From UHGV virus genome UHGV-0110025: 30,952 nt of DNA, one strand, 5' to 3'. Positions within the stretch are counted from its first letter, which is position 1; each line of letters opens with the position of its first letter. Position numbers and translations under genes: made by a program. Below the pieces are notes generated by a model. It had not been told where the DNA came from. It saw only the letters and a list, made by a program, of their open reading frames with translations, and did no database searches. This document shows, piece by piece, positions 50 through 8,947 of the stretch. This stretch comes from a virus.

Positions 50-1099
50 TTACGCAACCTCTGCCGCCACGTTGTCGCCAATACACAGTGACAACGGATT
101 CAAGGTGACAGCTTGTTCAAGATGGTCAGGAGCAAAGTGCGCATACTTCATTGTTTCACGAATATTTGCGTGACCGAGTATCTTCTGGAGTACAAGGATA
201 TTGCCGCCATTCATCATAAAATGCGCGCCAAAGGTGTGACGTAAAACGTGCGTTTTCTGCCCTTCAGTCAATTCAATGTTTGTGAGTTTGAGCATCTTCT
301 TAAAGTCCTGATAGCAGGGCTTGAACATTCTTCCCTGACGTTCGGACAACTCGTCATACAGCCATTTAGGAATCGGAACCGTGCGATTCTTCTTACCTTT
401 GGTTTTGGTGAAAGTCAGCTTGCAGGGGGAAAGTTGGGGACGTGTAAGTCTCTCAGCTTCTCCCCATCGTGCGCCAGTAGCCAGGCACACCTTAACAATC
501 ATAGTAAGATTTTCTTTGCCATATTGTTCACAGGCTCGGAACAGCTCCGGGAGCTGAGACAAAGTTAGCCAGGACATTTCTTTCTCAGCTTCTTTGAATA
601 CACGAATCCCGTCCAGTGGATTGGGTAAACTCCATTCACCTAATCGCCGCAGTTCATTGAACACAGCTTCGAGGTATTGCTGTTCGCGATTGACAGTTAT
701 AGGTTTGGCGATCCATTTCGCCGGGTCTTTGTGATAGCCGTTGTCTATTTCGCCACGTAATCGACGGTCACGGTAATGAGCCCAATCTTTAGCGGTAAGA
801 CGAGATGCAATAGGGTCGCCCAACCCGTTACATACAATTTGAAGCTTAGCTAACCGCGACTTACTGGCGACCAACGCCTGTCCATGTAAATTATGCCAAA
901 GCTGGATAATCTCACTTAAGCGTCGGCGGTCTTCTTTCTTGCCGAGCCACGGCTTATCTTCACTCTCGCTTTTCGTAAATGCTTCGAATGCCTCGGCCTC
1001 ACCTTTGGTATTGAATTGCCGACGTATTCGCCGCCCTTCTCGCCCATTAGGATAAAGCTCACATAACCATTTGCCATTTTTTTGCTTACTTATAGTCAT
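50..1099 (-). CDS. int: Tyrosine site-specific integrase (P2/186-type)
   Basis: ORF 50..1147; start taken at the second Met (ATG 1099, MTISKQKNGKW...). C-terminal catalytic region LRHTFGAHF...GHANIRETMKYAH carries the R/H-x-x-R-H...Y tyrosine-recombinase signature. Lies at the prophage edge downstream of cI as in P2. Confidence 0.9.
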   Translation of the reverse strand: MTISKQKNGKWLCELYPNGREGRRIRRQFNTKGEAEAFEAFTKSESEDKPWLGKKEDRRRLSEIIQLWHNLHGQALVASKSRLAKLQIVCNGLGDPIASRLTAKDWAHYRDRRLRGEIDNGYHKDPAKWIAKPITVNREQQYLEAVFNELRRLGEWSLPNPLDGIRVFKEAEKEMSWLTLSQLPELFRACEQYGKENLTMIVKVCLATGARWGEAERLTRPQLSPCKLTFTKTKGKKNRTVPIPKWLYDELSERQGRMFKPCYQDFKKMLKLTNIELTEGQKTHVLRHTFGAHFMMNGGNILVLQKILGHANIRETMKYAHFAPDHLEQAVTLNPLSLCIGDNVAAEVA

Positions 1100-1121
1100 A
1101 ATGTCACCGAGGCAACTCTTA

Positions 1122-1460
1122 TCATTCGCAAAGTGCTGTCGCAGCATCCATTACGGGATCCAAAGGAATTTTTACTCCTTCATAATCCGGGCTATCTTTC
1201 CAAACAGTATCAATATCGCTCCCCTCAAGCTTTCCAGACTTTACACCATCAATAGCAAACCCATTTAATGGGTATCGGTCATCTGTTGCTTTGTCGTACA
1301 CAAAGGCATATCTACCATTAACACAAGACACCGTAGCTTTTTCAAAAGTTAACGGCCAATCATCACCAAACTTAGCACCGTCTAAATCCTGTGTTTTTTC
1401 AGCGGCTGATGCACCGAAAGAAAGTGAAAGAAATAAAGCTAAAAAAAGCTTACGTTTCAT
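1122..1460 (-). CDS. Small exported protein with cleavable signal peptide (moron between cI and int)
   Basis: Start at ATG 1460 (MKRKLFLALFLSLSFGASA|AEK...), AAGGGA Shine-Dalgarno 4 nt upstream. N-terminal basic-hydrophobic-AxA signal peptide and two Cys in the mature part. Sits 8 nt after the cI stop and 22 nt before the int start, lower GC than neighbours. Confidence 0.6.
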   Translation of the reverse strand: MKRKLFLALFLSLSFGASAAEKTQDLDGAKFGDDWPLTFEKATVSCVNGRYAFVYDKATDDRYPLNGFAIDGVKSGKLEGSDIDTVWKDSPDYEGVKIPLDPVMDAATALCE

Positions 1461-1468
1461 AATGTCCC

Positions 1469-2305
1469 TTATACGTGTTTTTCCAATGTGAAAATTACAG
1501 CACCTACTGGTGTGATATCTGTAATGCTGCATTCAAACTCGGCAGACTTATTTGACAACCTGACTTTTCCGCCGGGAAGACGAATTACATCAAAAACATC
1601 AAGAGCGCCGTCAATATCAATTAACCAACGCCCATTACTTATGTTCGAAGCAGAACGGTTGACAAGCCAAGAGGCTCCAACACCTTCAACAAAAATCAAC
1701 TCCTCTGAGTCAGAGGGTATCATCGAGGGGTCTGGATGCCATTCGCCAGCGTCCTTAAGCTCACCCGCTTCAAGGCGAAATTTTTTAATTGAAAAACTTG
1801 ATGTGACCATTTCTCTGTTAGTTCGCATTTGCCCCTTGCCGGTTGCTAACCATTCCAGCGAAACACCAGTATCAAGGGCACAAGTAACAACTACATCGCC
1901 TGGGAAAAAATCACGCCGAACCCATGTGCTAATTGTTCCAGATGATATACCGAGTAAATCACCCAGCTCCTTTTGCATAGAAAAACCGTAAGCATCAAGG
2001 ATGCGTCTCAGAACAGGTTTACCACCTGAAGCCATGACCTTTTCATAAAGCTCTTTGCCCTTCAGGGTCGCACGTGAAGAGTTTGCTTTTGCAAGCTCCC
2101 CTGTCACTAACCATCCGATATCTGCGCCCGTTTCAATAGCACATTCAACAAATACATTGCCCGGAACGCTATCTCTGGCAAGCCAACTGCTTATGTTGTT
2201 GGCATAAATACCAAGTTTTTCGCCAAGTTCTTTTTGCGAGCTAAGTCCATAAGCCGAAAGGATTCTTTCGATAGCCGGAGCCGCACCATCTCCAAATTTA
2301 GCCAT
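1469..2305 (-). CDS. cI: CI-type immunity repressor (186 CI-like) with tandemly duplicated N-terminal HTH domain
   Basis: Two internal repeats: ...ERILSAYGLSSQKELGEKLGIYANNISSWLARDSVPGNVFVECAIETGADIGWLVTGE and ...RRILDAYGFSMQKELGDLLGISSGTISTWVRRDFFPGDVVVTCALDTGVSLEWLATGK, each matching the phage CI-repressor HTH pattern. Divergent from the early lytic operon, upstream of int. Confidence 0.8.
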   Translation of the reverse strand: MAKFGDGAAPAIERILSAYGLSSQKELGEKLGIYANNISSWLARDSVPGNVFVECAIETGADIGWLVTGELAKANSSRATLKGKELYEKVMASGGKPVLRRILDAYGFSMQKELGDLLGISSGTISTWVRRDFFPGDVVVTCALDTGVSLEWLATGKGQMRTNREMVTSSFSIKKFRLEAGELKDAGEWHPDPSMIPSDSEELIFVEGVGASWLVNRSASNISNGRWLIDIDGALDVFDVIRLPGGKVRLSNKSAEFECSITDITPVGAVIFTLEKHV

Positions 2306-2425: not shown

Positions 2426-2797
2426 ATGTCAGATGCAAAATCAATCTCGACGCATGATTCGCAAAACTCACAAAATCAAACTGTGCTGTTAGATCCGGCT
2501 CAGTTTGATGCCATCGTTACCGCTATGCTGCCAGCTCTGCAGACAATGATCCGCTCCGCTATGTCAGACACAATGACAGTGAAAGACTTTGCCGCCACTC
2601 GCGGTGTAAGCGAGCGTCTGGTCTGGCAATGGCTTGATGAGGGAATCCTCCTCAAAGCTCCAACTAAAGACTTTTCCAACAAGGAAGAGGCTGGAAAACG
2701 AAGCCGCACCCTCGTAAACGTGAAAGCATGGCGCGACAAACTAACCCAGCAAGCGATTGATTGTCGCTACATCGACCACCGCATCGCTCTTAACTGA
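2426..2797 (+). CDS. Apl/Cox-like early regulator / excisionase candidate (HTH protein)
   Basis: First gene of the rightward early operon, divergent from cI, the position of 186 apl / P2 cox. Central HTH-like segment MTVKDFAATRGVSERLVWQWLDEG. Good SD. At 123 aa it is longer than Apl/Cox, so the N-terminus or identity is uncertain. Confidence 0.55.
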   Translation: MSDAKSISTHDSQNSQNQTVLLDPAQFDAIVTAMLPALQTMIRSAMSDTMTVKDFAATRGVSERLVWQWLDEGILLKAPTKDFSNKEEAGKRSRTLVNVKAWRDKLTQQAIDCRYIDHRIALN

Positions 2798-2829
2798 ATT
2801 TGATTATGCAAGTTAGAGGGAATTTAACC

Positions 2830-3339
2830 ATGTTTGATTTTCAGATTTCTAAACATCCTCACTATGACGAAGCGTGCCGGGCTTTTGCGCAGCGTCACAA
2901 CATGGCGAAGCTGGCCGAGCGTGCGGGTATGAACGTTCAAACGTTACGTAACAAGCTCAACCCAGAACAGCCTCACCAATTCACACCGCCTGAATTGTGG
3001 CTGCTGACTGACCTGACCGAAGACTCAACCCTCGTTGATGGCTTTCTGGCGCAAATACATTGTCTGCCATGCGTGCCGGTTAATGAGCTGGCTAAAGAGA
3101 AATTGCAGTCTTATGTGATGCGCGCAATGAGTGAACTCGGCGAACTGGCGAGCGGTGCGGTATCAAATGAACGTATGACCTCTGACCGCAAACACAGCAT
3201 GGTTGAGAGTGTTAATGCAGGCATCCGCATGTTGTCTCTGTCGGCGCTGGCGTTACAGGCGCGTCTACAGGCTAACCCGGCAATGTCGAGCGTGGTTGAT
3301 ACCATGACCGGCATCGGCGCAACATTTGGTTTGGTATGA
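2830..3339 (+). CDS. cII: CII-like lysogeny establishment regulator (186 CII family)
   Basis: MFDFQISKHPHYDEACRAFAQRHNMAKLAERAGMNVQTLRNKLNPEQPHQFTPPELWLLTDL... matches my recollection of the 186 CII family. Start placed at the internal Met (ATG 2830); the six-frame ORF begins at 2800. Confidence 0.8.
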   Translation: MFDFQISKHPHYDEACRAFAQRHNMAKLAERAGMNVQTLRNKLNPEQPHQFTPPELWLLTDLTEDSTLVDGFLAQIHCLPCVPVNELAKEKLQSYVMRAMSELGELASGAVSNERMTSDRKHSMVESVNAGIRMLSLSALALQARLQANPAMSSVVDTMTGIGATFGLV

Positions 3340-4365: not shown

Positions 4366-6588
4366 TTGGCTGTTCAATTCGCTTATCCGTGGAATGCTCC
4401 ACGATCGGCTATAGCCAGCCCATACCTTACTTATAAGCAACAGCATCGCCGCGACCGTATGTTCGCGGCGATGCTGCATGCTAAAAAGGTGCTTTCTCTC
4501 CAGCCCGACTGCGTGCGGTTAGATGTTTATCGCACTGCGGCAGTGCTGGAGCAAAATCAGGGCATTCAACGAGCCAATGCCTTTTTGATCAGCTTCTGCA
4601 AAAAGGCATTGCCGCGTCTTGAATTGGTCGCAAAAAAATACGAATGCGCGGGTATCAACAGCAAGGTATCAACCTCTGTTTTTGGAAGTCATTTTGATAC
4701 CCAGCTTATGCAATATCTGGCGTCACGCATGGTTAATATGGTCGCCCGATATAACCGCCTCCCGGATATGTCGCGCGCTGATGTTGACCTGTTGGCCGCC
4801 GATATTGCTAATTTCATTCGTGGTGAACTTGCCAACATTAATGACCACGGATTCGGCGAGCTTAAAACGCTGTACACCTGGTATAATCGTGCTGGCTTTA
4901 TTTCCCTCCAGTTCAACGTTATCCCCCCCCATTGGGATCGGGTTGCAAAAAAATATGTTGGCGCGGATGAAATCGCACCGGCTATCGCCAAGATGTTTAA
5001 CGATGGGTGGTGGCGTGGTCGTTTGCGCCGGGTTGCAGCTACGTGGCGCGAACACCTGCAAATTGCAGTCGGCAACGTCAGCAAGAAAAAAAACACCTAT
5101 GCGAGTAAAAACTGCGTGACTGACTGGCGTGAACAAAAGCGCCGAACTCGTGAATTTCTCAAAGGTCTGGATCTCGAAGACGAAGACGGCAACCGTATCA
5201 GCCTGATTGAAAAATATGATGGCTCAGTTGCTAACCCTGCGATTCGCCGCTGTGAGCTCATGACTCGCATTCGTGGGTTTGAAAACATCTGTAATGAGCT
5301 CGGTTATGTCGGTGAGTTTTACACTCTGACCGCGCCGTCGAAATATCACGCCACGACTAAAGCCGGTTACCGTAACAGCAAATGGAGCGGTGCCTGCCCG
5401 GCTGACACGCAAAACTATCTAACTGATATCTGGGCGCGTATCCGTGCCAAACTGCATCGGGAAGATGTCCGTATTTTCGGTATTCGTGTCGCCGAGCCCC
5501 ATCACGACGGTACTCCACACTGGCACATGCTGATGTTCATGCTGCCGGAAGATGTTGAATATGTTCGCTCCATCGTCCGTAAATACGCGTGGAAAGAAGA
5601 CCGCCGCGAACTGAAAAGCGATAAGGCAAAAAAAGCACGTTTCCACGCCGAGTCCATTGACCCGGAGAAAGGCAGCGCAACCGGCTATGTTGCTAAATAC
5701 ATATCAAAAAATATCGACGGTTATGCTCTCGATGGTGAAACCGATAATGAAAGCGGTGAACTGCTGAAAGAGACAGCCCCCGCCGTTTCAGCATGGGCTT
5801 CGCGCTGGCACATCCGTCAGTTTCAGTTTATCGGTGGTGCGCCGGTGACGGTTTACCGTGAGTTGCGTCGCCTCGCTGATACCGAAACCGCGCACGGACT
5901 GAGCGTTGAGTTTGCCGCCGTCCATGATGCCGCCGACGCTGGTGACTGGGCTGGTTATGTTAATGCGCAGGGTGGACCGTTTGTCCGTCGCGATGATTTA
6001 CAGGTGCGCACACTGTATGAACCACGTACCGAGCTTAATCAGTACGGTGAGGAAACGGTATGTATTAAGGGGGTCTACGATTCCTCCATAGGTGCAGGTA
6101 GCCCGATTTTAACCCGGCTCACTCAGTGGAAGATTGTTCCGAAGCATGCTGTTGATTTGGCCGTTGACCTTCAGGACGGCAAAGCCGTCCCTCGGAGTTC
6201 TGTCAATAACTGTACGGGAAGTGAAAGCGATCCACCGATACTGGATTTAACAAAACCACAGAGTCGGCGCGAAAGACGAGAGCTGACCAACCGACTCAGG
6301 AAGCAAAAACCAGCAATACGGCGAAAATTCGTCCACGGAATGGATGAGCAAAACGCAGCTATAGCGAAAACTATCGACGAGATACATCTGACAACCAGCA
6401 TCACAATCAGCCGGGGCGAAGCCCTGCACCTGATGGCAGGTGGGAAAAGCTGTTTTGATGGCAAATGGCTAAGGGGAACATCCAAAGGGGAGATATTTTC
6501 CACTGTCCCATCGAACCAAGCTAAAGCTAGTAAAATCCTCAATCGTGTTGCAGCGTTGGTAGAAGCATCAAAGTTAATAGATGATTAA
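4366..6588 (+). CDS. A: Replication initiation endonuclease (P2 gpA family, rolling-circle HUH nickase)
   Basis: 740-aa ORF with a histidine-rich metal-binding region EPHHDGTPHWHMLMF and a downstream tyrosine motif GYVAKYISKN, typical of gpA initiators. Apparent TTG start at 4366 after a G-rich SD; an in-frame ATG lies at 4459. Confidence 0.9.
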   Translation: MAVQFAYPWNAPRSAIASPYLTYKQQHRRDRMFAAMLHAKKVLSLQPDCVRLDVYRTAAVLEQNQGIQRANAFLISFCKKALPRLELVAKKYECAGINSKVSTSVFGSHFDTQLMQYLASRMVNMVARYNRLPDMSRADVDLLAADIANFIRGELANINDHGFGELKTLYTWYNRAGFISLQFNVIPPHWDRVAKKYVGADEIAPAIAKMFNDGWWRGRLRRVAATWREHLQIAVGNVSKKKNTYASKNCVTDWREQKRRTREFLKGLDLEDEDGNRISLIEKYDGSVANPAIRRCELMTRIRGFENICNELGYVGEFYTLTAPSKYHATTKAGYRNSKWSGACPADTQNYLTDIWARIRAKLHREDVRIFGIRVAEPHHDGTPHWHMLMFMLPEDVEYVRSIVRKYAWKEDRRELKSDKAKKARFHAESIDPEKGSATGYVAKYISKNIDGYALDGETDNESGELLKETAPAVSAWASRWHIRQFQFIGGAPVTVYRELRRLADTETAHGLSVEFAAVHDAADAGDWAGYVNAQGGPFVRRDDLQVRTLYEPRTELNQYGEETVCIKGVYDSSIGAGSPILTRLTQWKIVPKHAVDLAVDLQDGKAVPRSSVNNCTGSESDPPILDLTKPQSRRERRELTNRLRKQKPAIRRKFVHGMDEQNAAIAKTIDEIHLTTSITISRGEALHLMAGGKSCFDGKWLRGTSKGEIFSTVPSNQAKASKILNRVAALVEASKLIDD

Positions 6589-6662
6589 TTTACATCCATA
6601 TCATGCACATACAATACCTGCATGATTCACTTTTTCTCTTCCCATCATTTGCTAATACGTGA

Positions 6663-6682
6663 TACTGTACAAATATACAGTT
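6663..6682. promoter_or_regulatory. LexA (SOS) box TACTGTACAAATATACAGTT
   Basis: CTGT-N8-ACAG with an AT-rich spacer, close to the E. coli LexA consensus TACTGTATATATATACAGTA. Lies about 20 bp upstream of the ATG at 6703, with a candidate -35 TTGCTA at 6649-6654. Confidence 0.7.
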
Positions 6683-6702
6683 ATCATATTGGGAGGGATT
6701 TC

Positions 6703-6888
6703 ATGGTTGGGGAACATTTCAGCCGAACGCAGCAAAAGTGGGCTTGTGTGCAATTCATTGCCGAGATATCTCTGGTTGCAAACTGCAAGCCAGCAGACTT
6801 AAAGCTTGCGCTTACTCTCATTGCTGATCTGGCAAACAGCGAAAACAACGAAGAACCAGAAAATGAAGTCTTTTATAAGGCTGAATAG
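6703..6888 (+). CDS. Small SOS-controlled protein, candidate Tum-like antirepressor
   Basis: 61-aa ORF with SD GGGAGGGA (6691-6698), immediately downstream of the LexA box. It is downstream of gene A, where 186 carries the LexA-regulated tum gene. The protein has an acidic C-terminus; sequence identity to Tum is not verified. Confidence 0.45.
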   Translation: MVGEHFSRTQQKWACVQFIAEISLVANCKPADLKLALTLIADLANSENNEEPENEVFYKAE

Positions 6889-6891
6889 GTT

Positions 6892-7026
6892 ATGAAAATT
6901 AATCTCACATTGGATAAGAAACAAAAACTAGGCCGACCGGTTATTGATGCCTTTCAATGCGAATTGACCAAGAGGACACTGTCTATTTTTCCGTCAACAT
7001 GTGGTGCCGTCAAGAGAGCACTATGA
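6892..7026 (+). CDS. Small basic hypothetical ORF (44 aa)
   Basis: MKINLTLDKKQKLGRPVIDAFQCELTKRTLSIFPSTCGAVKRAL. Starts 3 nt after the stop of the Tum-like ORF, in the same frame. Below the 60-aa cutoff of the supplied track; translated by hand. Confidence 0.3.
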   Translation: MKINLTLDKKQKLGRPVIDAFQCELTKRTLSIFPSTCGAVKRAL

Positions 7027-7148
7027 GTGGTGCTGAGTTGATGGAGTTTGATATAGATTCAGATCGCGAGGCGCTTGATGGTATTCTCCAAGAAATCTGG
7101 GAAGACGAGCAGTTGGCGGTAGTTAATGACAGAATGTGCAGACCATAA
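7023..7148 (+). CDS. Small acidic hypothetical ORF (41 aa)
   Basis: MSGAELMEFDIDSDREALDGILQEIWEDEQLAVVNDRMCRP. Its ATG overlaps the TGA of the preceding 44-aa ORF (ATGA), suggesting translational coupling. Confidence 0.35.
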   Translation: MSGAELMEFDIDSDREALDGILQEIWEDEQLAVVNDRMCRP

Positions 7149-7193
7149 CCCTATGTCTAGTTGCACGGAGGTTAGAAAAAATGCTGTCCGAAT

Positions 7194-7214
7194 TAGCCCT
7201 CTCTCAGAGGGCTA
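7194..7214 (+). terminator. Perfect 9-bp-stem hairpin TAGCCCTCT-CTC-AGAGGGCTA
   Basis: Inverted repeat read from the sequence, downstream of the small-ORF cluster and upstream of the 7347 operon. A T-run (tgctgttttt) follows only after about 15 nt, so intrinsic-terminator function is uncertain. Confidence 0.35.
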
Positions 7215-7271
7215 TGAATTAAAAATGCTGTTTTTGATATGTTAACCTCTTAACAGTTTCATCTTTAAATC

Positions 7272-7346: not shown

Positions 7347-7862
7347 ATGCCTGGATTCCAAAATGCACAGCAAAATCAATTTGATGATCATGCTCCAGAA
7401 ATGGAGATAAACTTAATCGTAGATGTTGCTGAGCAGCCCGTAGCCTTTACCTATCAATATAGTGAGCAAATTAGCCACCTTGCACCGCAATGTCCGCCAG
7501 CAGAAGCGATTGAATGTGACAAAGAATGCTGGCGCTTCACTCTCAATCCGATAACGGACAGTTGCTTTTGGCCTCCAAAAAGAAGGGTTCCTGAGAGGGT
7601 TGCCTCAGACAGTCAGCAGGAGTGCTCTATGTGGGCGTTGTCTATGTATGAATCAGAGCGACAAGCTGTAGTCGCTTATTCTGGGCTTTCTAAGTCAGTG
7701 AGAAATATTAAGAAAACAATTGGAGATCACCTTGCAAGAGGCACGGTAGCTTGTGGTGATGGTAGATGTATGCCTCCAAATAGAAAAGGCCATTTTGACT
7801 TTCATCCATATTTAGATACTGAGTTCCCTGATGGCTTTCAGGTAATAAGAGCATTACCATGA
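7347..7862 (+). CDS. Hypothetical Cys-rich protein, gene 1 of an accessory two-gene operon
   Basis: 171-aa ORF with strong SD, AT-rich codon usage unlike the phage backbone, several Cys pairs (CPPAEAIECDKEC ... CGDGRC). No motif I recognise. Stop overlaps the next start (ATGA at 7859-7862). Confidence 0.6.
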   Translation: MPGFQNAQQNQFDDHAPEMEINLIVDVAEQPVAFTYQYSEQISHLAPQCPPAEAIECDKECWRFTLNPITDSCFWPPKRRVPERVASDSQQECSMWALSMYESERQAVVAYSGLSKSVRNIKKTIGDHLARGTVACGDGRCMPPNRKGHFDFHPYLDTEFPDGFQVIRALP

Positions 7863-8947
7863 TAAAATTAGATGCTAAAAGAATCACTGCACCGGAGGTC
7901 GGAGATTACTCGTGGTATTCTGACTTGGTGTATTTTGATGGACCACTGATTTGTTTATTTCGAGGAAGTGGCTATAAGGATGCTCTTTATGTTTGGCTTG
8001 ATAATTCAACCAGAGCCAACCGCTGGTGTTTAATACCTGTATCAAGGTCAACTTTAGATTCCTATCTTAATCAAAGAATGAGTCTAAGAGAAATCATACA
8101 ATCAAACGAATATGTTTATATTTGCAATCACTTTGCAGAAACAGGACGAAAAAATTATAGCCGTCTGAGCGTAGATGATTTCCCTGAGGAATATATGCCT
8201 GATGCTGACTCATATTTATATGAAGAAATATGCACCGATGACGCACTATTGTTAAAGCAAGAACGCACATCTAGCTATATGCTAGGACTGGACAACCAGT
8301 TGTTTATAAATGATTTATCAGAAATTCCAAAAATTTTCGAACAATTGTATTCTTTCCACTATGGACTTGCCCACTTGGGCAGAATTTCCATTAGAAATAC
8401 CATGCTGCGATTGATGGGTAGTTGGACTGGTGGATTCTCAGCAGTAAATATTTTCACTGGTTTAAAGAATGTCATTCCTGTCCTGCACCGCCCAGAAGTT
8501 AGCTCACTTCAATATAACTCCCCCGGACATATTGAATTGAACTTGCTTCCTGACTTGGCGCAGAGCGTTCAGGATGTATCTGTTCGTGTTGAAAATGAAT
8601 TTATTTATGACCGTTTAGAGAAAATCTATAAAAACAATTACACATACTTTAAAGATAAAGATCTATCAGGTTTTGATGAGGGTGGAGGAATTGAGTTAAG
8701 GAACATCGACTCTGAAACCACAGAAAATCTTCGTAAGCGTGTTAGAATTTTCTTTAGGTGTTTAGGTTGGAAAACCTATCAAGCGCAGTTTGATATGATC
8801 GGTGCCCATCCCTTGCAGCAGTTACGCGCAGTTATGGCGTATTACAGACGCCTGAAAACATTACGAGAATATATTGTGGCAGATAAATTATTCATTGGTC
8901 ATTCGCGAGTGCCGGTAGAGCAAATTACTGTGAATACTGAAAATTAG
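7859..8947 (+). CDS. Hypothetical protein, gene 2 of an accessory two-gene operon
   Basis: 362-aa ORF translationally coupled to the upstream gene, AT-rich. No P-loop, HExxH, HIT or other motif recognised. Located between gene A and cos. Confidence 0.65.
   Translation: MIKLDAKRITAPEVGDYSWYSDLVYFDGPLICLFRGSGYKDALYVWLDNSTRANRWCLIPVSRSTLDSYLNQRMSLREIIQSNEYVYICNHFAETGRKNYSRLSVDDFPEEYMPDADSYLYEEICTDDALLLKQERTSSYMLGLDNQLFINDLSEIPKIFEQLYSFHYGLAHLGRISIRNTMLRLMGSWTGGFSAVNIFTGLKNVIPVLHRPEVSSLQYNSPGHIELNLLPDLAQSVQDVSVRVENEFIYDRLEKIYKNNYTYFKDKDLSGFDEGGGIELRNIDSETTENLRKRVRIFFRCLGWKTYQAQFDMIGAHPLQQLRAVMAYYRRLKTLREYIVADKLFIGHSRVPVEQITVNTEN

What the first reader, a model, noticed from the sequence alone, without database searches (positions are those of the whole stretch)
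6649..6888. Near-consensus LexA box controlling a small ORF downstream of gene A (Tum-like SOS induction module)
TACTGTACAAATATACAGTT (6663-6682) fits CTGT-N8-ACAG with an AT-rich spacer and sits just after a candidate -35 TTGCTA, 20 bp before a 61-aa ORF with a strong SD. The cI here shows no recognisable LexA-like self-cleavage motif, so, as in phage 186, induction would be expected to run through a LexA-repressed antirepressor. The two small coupled ORFs that follow may share this SOS-regulated transcript.
Basis: partly seen in the sequence, partly recalled or inferred. Interest (0 to 1): 0.6.

Follow-up and report, generated by a model that had tools for sequence, protein, structure and literature searches.

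The report
LexA-controlled tumA antirepressor of P2/186-like prophage
This is the ordinary, already described DNA-damage switch of PSP3/186-type prophages: a LexA-repressed promoter drives a 61-residue antirepressor gene (tumA), followed here by a frameshift-broken dinI-like gene.

Summary
TACTGTACAAATATACAGTT lies at 6663-6682 and is the only LexA-type site in the window. It scores 25.7 bits; the next best site scores 8.7. It sits 20 nt upstream of a 61-aa ORF (6703-6888) that has a GGGAGGG Shine-Dalgarno sequence.

The window is a PSP3/186-like P2-family prophage. The ORF is 85% identical to PSP3 TumA and lies in the same place, just after replication gene A. All 29 related loci from different enterobacterial species carry a strong LexA box, 17-23 nt before the start codon in 28 of them and 40 nt in one. 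The ORF is under purifying selection (median dN/dS about 0.13).

A profile comparison links TumA to the N-terminal, anti-CI half of phage 186 Tum (94% probability). The repressor here is a 186/PSP3-type CI with no S24 self-cleavage domain. The literature states that the upstream PSP3 gene carries the antirepressor activity.

Two corrections:
- The conserved -35 is TTCCCA (6639-6644), with the box's left arm TACTGT as the -10.
- The "two small coupled ORFs" are the halves of one dinI-like tumB gene, broken by two 1-nt indels.

The parts
6639..6644 (+). Probable -35 hexamer TTCCCA of the p95-equivalent promoter
   Evidence: Aligns with the -35 annotated for 186 p95 (TTCACA). The T, T and final A are invariant or nearly invariant across 22 upstream regions. 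It lies 18 nt from the TACTGT -10.
6649..6654 (+).
   Evidence: Present in the sequence and in close relatives as TTGCCA/TTGCTA. It is not conserved in more distant tumA loci. Spacings of 16-19 nt give only weak -10 candidates inside the box spacer.
6663..6682 (.). LexA (SOS) box TACTGTACAAATATACAGTT; its left arm TACTGT (6663-6668) doubles as the probable -10
   Evidence: Unique in the window: 25.7 bits against 8.7 for the next site. The CTGT and ACAGT arms are invariant in 22 aligned upstream regions. A box scoring 21-28.7 bits is present in 29 of 29 related loci. Homologous to the LexA site annotated for 186 p95.
6691..6697 (+). Shine-Dalgarno sequence GGGAGGG, 5 nt before the ATG
   Evidence: Read directly from the sequence. 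A purine-rich block is conserved at this position in relatives.
6703..6888 (+). tumA, a 61-aa predicted antirepressor of the PSP3-type CI
   Evidence: 85% identical to PSP3 TumA. 140 homologues were found, mostly of 60-61 aa. Median dN/dS is 0.13. hhalign against the N-terminal half of 186 Tum gives 94% probability, E 1.2e-7. The AlphaFold2 model is a two-helix hairpin, residues 2-25 and 30-45, with pLDDT above 90 in the core.
6892..7026 (+). N-terminal fragment (44 aa) of a disrupted dinI-like tumB
   Evidence: tblastn against the 186 Tum C-terminal half matches residues 1-42 at 69% identity in frame 1. Matches PHROG 189 (DinI) at profile positions 71-113. A 1-nt deletion near 7013-7016 relative to 186, 613R3 and PSP3 causes a stop at 7024-7026.
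7023..7148 (+). C-terminal fragment (41 aa) of the disrupted tumB, starting in an ATGA overlap with the previous stop
   Evidence: tblastn matches 186 Tum C-terminal residues 40-72 in a different frame. Matches PHROG 189 at positions 116-144 and gives a weak Pfam DinI hit. A second 1-nt insertion near 7108 replaces the conserved ...EDESWR* ending with a 13-residue unrelated tail.
7194..7214 (+). 9-bp GC-rich hairpin TAGCCCTCT-CTC-AGAGGGCTA; possible end of the SOS transcript (inferred)
   Evidence: Found by RNA folding of 7140-7260, z = -2.8. There is no adjacent U-run, so the terminator scan did not report it. It lies at a position comparable to 186 t95a.
1469..2305 (-). cI immunity repressor, the presumed target of TumA
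   Evidence: Matches Pfam Phage_CI_repr (twice) and Phage_CI_C, with no Peptidase_S24 match. 33% identical to 186 CI and 78% identical to PSP3 CI.

Best explanation
The region is the SOS induction module of a PSP3/186-type P2-family prophage. The proposed mechanism has four steps.

1. In an undamaged lysogen, host LexA binds the single box at 6663-6682. The box overlaps the -10 (TACTGT) and the probable start site of a promoter whose -35 is TTCCCA (6639-6644). Transcription is therefore shut off.
2. DNA damage activates RecA and LexA cleaves itself. The promoter then fires and produces a short transcript carrying tumA (6703-6888) and the remnant of tumB.
3. TumA, a 61-residue two-helix protein, binds the 186/PSP3-type CI repressor and prevents it from binding its operators. 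This repressor has no self-cleavage domain. The early lytic promoter is thereby derepressed and the prophage is induced.
4. The downstream dinI-like tumB would normally modulate RecA and the SOS response. Here two frameshifts have inactivated it, and it is dispensable for the switch.

Shown here: the site, its uniqueness, its conservation, the homologies, the repressor type and the tumB disruption. Inferred from homologues and the literature: LexA binding, SOS-dependent transcription and the TumA-CI interaction.
For: - **Site strength and uniqueness:**
- **Conserved box.** A LexA box of 21-28.7 bits lies upstream of tumA in 29 of 29 loci from different species, 17-23 nt before the start codon in 28 of them and 40 nt in one. 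The box arms are the invariant columns of the upstream alignment.
- **Promoter homology.** The region aligns with the annotated 186 p95 promoter, LexA site and tum.
- **Position.** tumA sits immediately after gene A, as in PSP3, 613R3 and 186.
- **tumA homology.** TumA is 85% identical to PSP3 TumA. The TumA profile matches the 186 Tum N-terminal profile with 94% probability, E 1.2e-7, over 51 columns.
- **Selection:** median dN/dS 0.13.
- **Repressor.** CI is 186-type without S24 and 78% identical to PSP3 CI.
- **Literature.** 186 Tum is LexA-regulated and inactivates CI (PMC7708051). [quoted passage not shown] In the E. coli HS prophage DuoHS, the deleted 'tum' (ECHS_RS04495) is a 62-aa stand-alone ORF preceded by a LexA box and followed by a separate dinI-like gene. 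Both the tum deletion and lexA(Ind-) abolish mitomycin C induction.
- **tumB is accessory.** It is absent from 20 of 29 loci and independently frameshifted in L022.
Against: - There is no experimental evidence for this prophage.
- The PSP3 TumA antirepressor activity is known to me only as a personal communication cited second-hand (PMC3121763).
- BLASTP finds no similarity between TumA and 186 Tum, so the link rests on one profile-profile comparison.
- The DuoHS Tum is only weakly related to the TumA family (hhalign 63%).
- Pfam, NCBIfam and PADLOC have no model for TumA, and PHROG 1993 is labelled 'unknown function'.
- The promoter hexamers are weak matches to consensus, and the generic promoter scan did not report them.
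- My LexA matrix was built from sites recalled from memory.
Confidence: 0.88

Rival explanations
1. The LexA-controlled operon is an SOS-modulating accessory module centred on the dinI-like gene rather than the induction switch. The small upstream ORF would then have some other role, such as a small SOS-induced regulator or toxin, and the prophage would be induced by another route or not by SOS at all.
For: The downstream gene family is DinI-like. Databases list TumA as having unknown function. Similarity between TumA and the 186 Tum N-terminus is weak.
Against: - The dinI-like gene is the dispensable part. It is broken here and absent from 20 of 29 loci, while the LexA box plus tumA is always kept.
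- The profile link to the anti-CI half of 186 Tum has 94% probability.
- The literature assigns the antirepressor activity to the upstream PSP3 gene.
- Deleting the analogous small ORF in DuoHS blocks induction.
- No other LexA site and no S24 repressor exist in the window.
Confidence: 0.06
2. The module is a relic in a decaying prophage. The site and ORF are intact in sequence but no longer drive induction, as the frameshifted tumB might hint.
For: tumB carries two frameshifts that are reproduced in independent assemblies.
Against: - tumA, its Shine-Dalgarno sequence and the LexA box are intact and near consensus.
- The window is about 96% identical over 82% of the first 24 kb compared to an isolated phage, vB_EcoM-613R3.
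- cI, cII, gene A and the integrase match their expected families as full-length ORFs.
- ORFs at the portal and terminase positions have the same lengths as in 613R3.
- tumB loss is common in otherwise conserved loci.
Confidence: 0.04
3. The palindrome is a chance match or binds a regulator other than LexA.
For: A bare CTGT-N8-ACAG match is expected 0.28 times per window by chance.
Against: The full 20-mer match was never seen in shuffles. It scores better than most genuine E. coli SOS boxes. It is conserved in position and sequence in 29 of 29 loci across many enterobacterial genera, while the flanks diverge.
Confidence: 0.02

Closest known systems
Salmonella phage PSP3 tumA/tumB (GenBank AY135486; AAN08399, AAN08400)
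   Same: - Same genome position after gene A.
- Same LexA box (TACTGTATAAATATACAGTA in PSP3) and Shine-Dalgarno sequence.
- TumA 85% identical, with a 3-nt gap before tumB.
- Same long CI of about 280 aa with two HTH domains (78% identical).
   Different: The window's tumB is split by a 1-nt deletion and a 1-nt insertion. Its sequence is closer to the 186 and 613R3 version than to PSP3 TumB. The cargo downstream differs: PD-T4-10 here.
Coliphage 186 p95-tum SOS operon (LexA-repressed Tum antirepressor; Lamont 1989, Shearwin 1998, as cited in PMC7708051 and PMC3121763)
   Same: - The promoter and LexA-box region are homologous and can be aligned.
- Same position after gene A.
- CI of the same Pfam families.
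- Same logic: LexA represses an antirepressor that inactivates CI.
   Different: In 186 the antirepressor and DinI-like parts are fused in one 146-aa protein. The N-terminal half is only remotely similar to TumA: no BLASTP hit, hhalign 94%. 186 CI has a single HTH domain, and 186 carries orf97 downstream.
E. coli HS P2-like prophage DuoHS tum (ECHS_RS04495; Phollow study, PMC12055606)
   Same: A stand-alone 62-aa ORF after gene A, preceded by a LexA box and followed by a separate dinI-like gene, with a 186-type CI. The tum deletion and lexA(Ind-) block mitomycin C induction.
   Different: The sequence is a different, only weakly related variant (hhalign 63%). Its CI has one HTH domain.
Gifsy-prophage antirepressors GfoA/GftA and N15 AntC (LexA-controlled antirepressors; PMC3121763)
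   Same: The same regulatory logic: a LexA-repressed small antirepressor inactivates a non-cleavable repressor, in an operon that also encodes a DinI homologue.
   Different: The phage type is unrelated (lambdoid). The gene order is reversed, with dinI first. No sequence relationship was tested or is claimed.

Membership tests
PSP3 TumA / 186 Tum LexA-controlled antirepressor module | Near-consensus LexA box overlapping the promoter immediately upstream of the gene | tested here: met
   25.7-bit site at 6663-6682, unique in the window. Conserved in 29 of 29 loci. Aligns with the LexA site annotated for 186 p95.
PSP3 TumA / 186 Tum LexA-controlled antirepressor module | Located directly downstream of replication gene A in a P2/186-like genome | tested here: met
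   Gene A is at 4366-6588 and tumA at 6703-6888. The order matches PSP3, 613R3, 186 and DuoHS.
PSP3 TumA / 186 Tum LexA-controlled antirepressor module | Sequence homology to PSP3 TumA | tested here: met
   85% identity over the full length, E 3e-40.
PSP3 TumA / 186 Tum LexA-controlled antirepressor module | Sequence homology to the N-terminal (anti-CI) half of 186 Tum | tested here: met
   BLASTP finds nothing. Profile-profile comparison gives 94% probability, E 1.2e-7, over 51 columns; narrower profiles give 69-77%. The feature is met only at profile level.
PSP3 TumA / 186 Tum LexA-controlled antirepressor module | Cognate immunity repressor is a 186-type CI without a LexA-like autocleavage domain | tested here: met
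   PF07022 + PF16452, no Peptidase_S24 match. 33% identical to 186 CI and 78% to PSP3 CI.
PSP3 TumA / 186 Tum LexA-controlled antirepressor module | Protein binds CI and blocks operator binding; required for SOS induction | not testable with these tools
   Known for 186 Tum, and by personal communication for PSP3 TumA (PMC3121763). Shown genetically for DuoHS tum (PMC12055606).
PSP3 TumA / 186 Tum LexA-controlled antirepressor module | Transcription induced by DNA damage and dependent on LexA cleavage | not testable with these tools
   Requires a reporter fusion or RNA measurements in wild-type and lexA(Ind-) hosts.
DinI-like family (PF06183) / PSP3 TumB | Sequence similarity to DinI or the C-terminal half of 186 Tum | tested here: met
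   tblastn gives 69-70% identity to the 186 Tum C-terminal half across two frames. PHROG 189 matches at profile positions 71-113 and 116-144.
DinI-like family (PF06183) / PSP3 TumB | One uninterrupted ORF of about 76-80 aa encoding the whole domain | tested here: not met
   Split into 44-aa and 41-aa ORFs by a 1-nt deletion, and the C-terminus is altered by a 1-nt insertion. The same state appears in two independent assemblies. Neither fragment reaches the Pfam cut-off.
Lambda-type self-cleaving repressor (Peptidase_S24) as the alternative SOS sensor | S24 peptidase domain in the immunity repressor | tested here: not met
   The Pfam scan of CI (1469-2305) gives no S24 match.

The most novel reading that the evidence does not exclude
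The split tumB might not be dead. The ATGA stop/start overlap at 7023-7026 could allow translational re-initiation. That would produce a free 41-residue peptide carrying the acidic C-terminal helix of DinI (…DREALDGILQEIWEDE…), which might still act on RecA filaments on its own. The same split state in three independent assemblies would then reflect a maintained two-peptide variant rather than recent decay.
Probability: 0.05. Interest if true: 0.4.

Novelty: already known. Interest (0 to 1): 0.15.

Why it matters
The result gives a confident annotation. This prophage should be SOS-inducible through a LexA-repressed antirepressor acting on a non-cleavable CI, as in 186, PSP3, Fels-2 and DuoHS.

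Practical value is modest:
- TumA-family proteins are still labelled 'hypothetical' or 'unknown function' in Pfam, NCBIfam, PHROGs and RefSeq. The comparative data here could justify a family annotation: the LexA box is conserved in 29 of 29 loci, dN/dS is 0.13, and there is a profile link to 186 Tum.
- The data show that the dinI-like partner is the dispensable half of the module.

No open question is made newly testable.

Tried and rejected
- BLASTP of TumA against 186 Tum gave no alignment, so profile-profile comparison was needed.
- Pfam, NCBIfam and PADLOC have no family for TumA. PHROG 1993 carries no function.
- The AlphaFold2 model is a plain helical hairpin, and Foldseek against the PDB gave no match with E below 4. 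This was uninformative.
- The generic sigma-70 scan proposed GTGATA-17-TATCAT (6659-6687). I rejected it because transcription would then start inside the Shine-Dalgarno sequence and the hexamers are not conserved.
- The 88-aa reading from ATG 6622 was rejected because it starts upstream of the promoter and the homologues are 60-61 aa.
- A sequencing error as the cause of the tumB frameshifts was rejected. Two independent metagenome assemblies show both indels, and one of them differs by a SNP.
- A shared slippage site was considered, because L022 is also frameshifted. It was rejected because the L022 indel is at a different position.
- The E. coli complete-genome search found no genome carrying this exact tumB region.
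- The primary papers (Lamont 1989, Bunny 2002) and the Christie and Calendar 2016 review are not held in the library. A search for 'TumA/TumB' returned only unrelated papers.
- The search for related loci with the broad alignment failed for lack of a conserved stretch; the narrower alignment worked.

Full report
**What is in the sequence.** TACTGTACAAATATACAGTT occupies 6663-6682. GGGAGGG lies at 6691-6697 and an ATG at 6703. That ATG opens a 61-codon ORF ending at 6888: MVGEHFSRTQQKWACVQFIAEISLVANCKPADLKLALTLIADLANSENNEEPENEVFYKAE.

- The core CTGT-N8-ACAG occurs once in the window, against 0.28 expected.
- The 20-mer lies within 3 mismatches of TACTG(TA)5CAGTA, which no shuffle reached.
- A matrix built from 25 E. 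coli SOS boxes (recalled from memory, so approximate) scores it at 25.7 bits. That is above 23 of the 25 training sites. The runner-up in the window scores 8.7 bits and the weakest training site 12.7.

**Genomic context.** The window is a P2-family (Peduoviridae, PSP3/186-like) prophage.

| Feature | Coordinates |
|---|---|
| integrase | 50-1147 (-) |
| DUF2511 gene | 1122-1532 (-) |
| cI | 1469-2305 (-) |
| cII | 2800-3339 (+) |
| replication gene A | 4366-6588 (+) |
| the finding | from 6639 (+) |
| cargo, then portal and terminase | from 7347 |

These assignments rest. The closest phage record is Escherichia phage vB_EcoM-613R3, about 96% identical over 82% of the first 24 kb. PSP3 is about 87% identical.

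In PSP3 the two genes after gene A are annotated tumA ('similar to 5' end 186 tum; UV induction of prophage') and tumB ('similar to dinI and 3' end of 186 tum'). 613R3 labels them 'UV induction of prophage' and 'DNA-damage-inducible protein I'. The window's ORF is 85% identical to PSP3 TumA.

**Is the ORF a real gene, and how is the site conserved?**
- The protein search found 140 homologues, mostly of 60-61 aa, in prophages of Salmonella, Klebsiella, Enterobacter, Citrobacter, Yokenella, Kosakonia, Buttiauxella and other genera. Most are named 'hypothetical' and a few 'TumA'.
- The alignment has an invariant core, CVQFIAE.SL.ANC.P..LKLA...IA.L.
- Median dN/dS against 18 loci with unsaturated dS is 0.13.
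- In 29 loci from species-representative genomes, every one has a LexA box of 21-28.7 bits. It lies 17-23 nt before the tumA start, with one exception at 40 nt.
- In an alignment of 22 upstream regions, the invariant columns are the CTGT and ACAGT arms, a TT...A element 18 nt upstream of the box, the purine-rich Shine-Dalgarno block and the ATG. The flanks have diverged.

**Promoter.** The upstream region aligns with the p95 region of phage 186. The 186 record annotates a -35 (TTCACA), a -10 (TACTGT, the left arm of the box) and the LexA site.

The corresponding window elements are TTCCCA (6639-6644) and TACTGT (6663-6668), with an 18-nt spacer. These are the conserved positions. Under either assignment LexA would occlude the core promoter.

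**Link to 186 Tum.** BLASTP sees no similarity between TumA and 186 Tum. The exhaustive profile search extended the TumA family to about 30-40% identical small proteins. The resulting profile aligns with a profile of the 186 Tum N-terminal half at 94% probability, E 1.2e-7, TumA residues 10-60 against Tum residues 8-58. The shared pattern is V..IA......C...(D/E)..(I/L)AL.LIA(D/E)(I/L)A.

The 186 record assigns CI inhibition only to the full-length Tum. It describes the shorter products that start downstream, including the DinI-like 76-aa one, as 'modulating' induction. This agrees with the N-terminal half carrying the antirepressor activity.

AlphaFold2 predicts a two-helix hairpin with a disordered acidic tail. 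Foldseek found nothing specific.

**Published evidence.**
- Lemire et al. [quoted passage not shown] The last point is a personal communication from G. E. Christie cited via Bunny et al. 2002.
- PMC7708051 summarises LexA-regulated p95-tum and the inactivation of CI by Tum.
- In the Phollow study (PMC12055606), deleting tum (ECHS_RS04495) or introducing lexA(Ind-) abolishes mitomycin C induction of the E. coli HS prophage DuoHS. I checked that locus. It is a 62-aa stand-alone ORF after gene A, preceded by TACTGTAAATATAAACAGTG and followed by a separate dinI-like gene. It is only weakly related to TumA (hhalign 63%), but it has the same architecture.

**The repressor.** The cI product matches Phage_CI_repr (PF07022, twice) and Phage_CI_C (PF16452), with no Peptidase_S24 match. 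It is 33% identical to 186 CI and 78% identical to the 286-aa PSP3 CI.

**The two following ORFs.** They are not independent genes.
- ORF 6892-7026 aligns with residues 1-42 of the DinI-like half of 186 Tum. ORF 7023-7148 aligns with residues 40-72, in a different frame.
- They match consecutive parts of PHROG 189, 'RecA filament binding protein DinI'.
- Relative to 186, 613R3 and PSP3 there is a 1-nt deletion near 7013-7016. It causes a stop at 7024-7026, overlapping an ATG at 7023. A 1-nt insertion near 7108 changes ...EDESWR* into ...EDEQLAVVNDRMCRP*.
- Two independent metagenome assemblies, Logan SRR19716476 and ENA ERZ27289120, carry both indels. The ENA contig differs by one SNP, so this is not an assembly error in the window.
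- tumB is absent from 20 of 29 tumA loci and independently frameshifted at another position in an Atlantibacter genome.

tumB is therefore the accessory part of the module, and the most likely reading is a pseudogene. It starts 3 nt after the tumA stop with no intervening promoter, so it would be co-transcribed. A 9-bp hairpin at 7194-7214 may end the transcript, but it lacks a U-run.

**Verdict.** The system is the known PSP3/186-type LexA-Tum-CI induction circuit, so its novelty is 'already known' and its interest is low. The steps that remain inferred for this prophage are LexA binding, SOS-dependent transcription and the TumA-CI interaction.

Noticed in passing
window 7347-7862 (+) and 7859-8947 (+): The two overlapping genes directly downstream of the tum operon match PADLOC PD-T4-10_A (E 6.5e-69) and PD-T4-10_B (E 3.3e-169). 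This is a known two-gene anti-phage defence system, sitting in the variable cargo spot between tum and the portal gene. The closest phage, 613R3, has different genes there.
   Followed up: partly
window 1469-2305 (-): The CI repressor has two tandem 186-CI-type HTH domains (about residues 12-70 and 98-157) ahead of the CI C-terminal domain. PSP3 and 613R3 CI (286 aa) share this architecture. 186 CI (192 aa) and DuoHS CI (189 aa) have one HTH domain. The Tum type (PSP3 TumA, 186 Tum, DuoHS Tum) appears to vary together with the CI type, which I did not test systematically.
   Followed up: partly
window 6892-7148 (+); also L022 3187-3416: The dinI-like tumB is frameshifted here at two positions. 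It is independently frameshifted in an Atlantibacter genome and missing from 20 of 29 tumA loci. The SOS module repeatedly loses its DinI half.
   Followed up: yes
window 1122-1532 (-): A DUF2511-family ORF (E 2.4e-16; PHROG 2950, unknown function) lies between the integrase and cI and overlaps both ORF ends. It corresponds to PSP3 gp28 and 613R3 'Gp28'.
   Followed up: no
window 2426-2797 (+): The first gene of the early lytic operon, at the position of apl/cox, is 123 aa. It matches PHROG 3554 (unknown function) strongly and Cox-like excisionase families only weakly (E 1.6e-4). It is longer than 186 Apl, which is 87 aa.
   Followed up: no
L036 19540-19600 (E. coli HS, upstream of ECHS_RS04495): The experimentally validated DuoHS tum is annotated in RefSeq only as 'hypothetical protein'. 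Upstream it has one clear LexA box (TACTGTAAATATAAACAGTG) followed by a second partial ACAGT-containing repeat.
   Followed up: no
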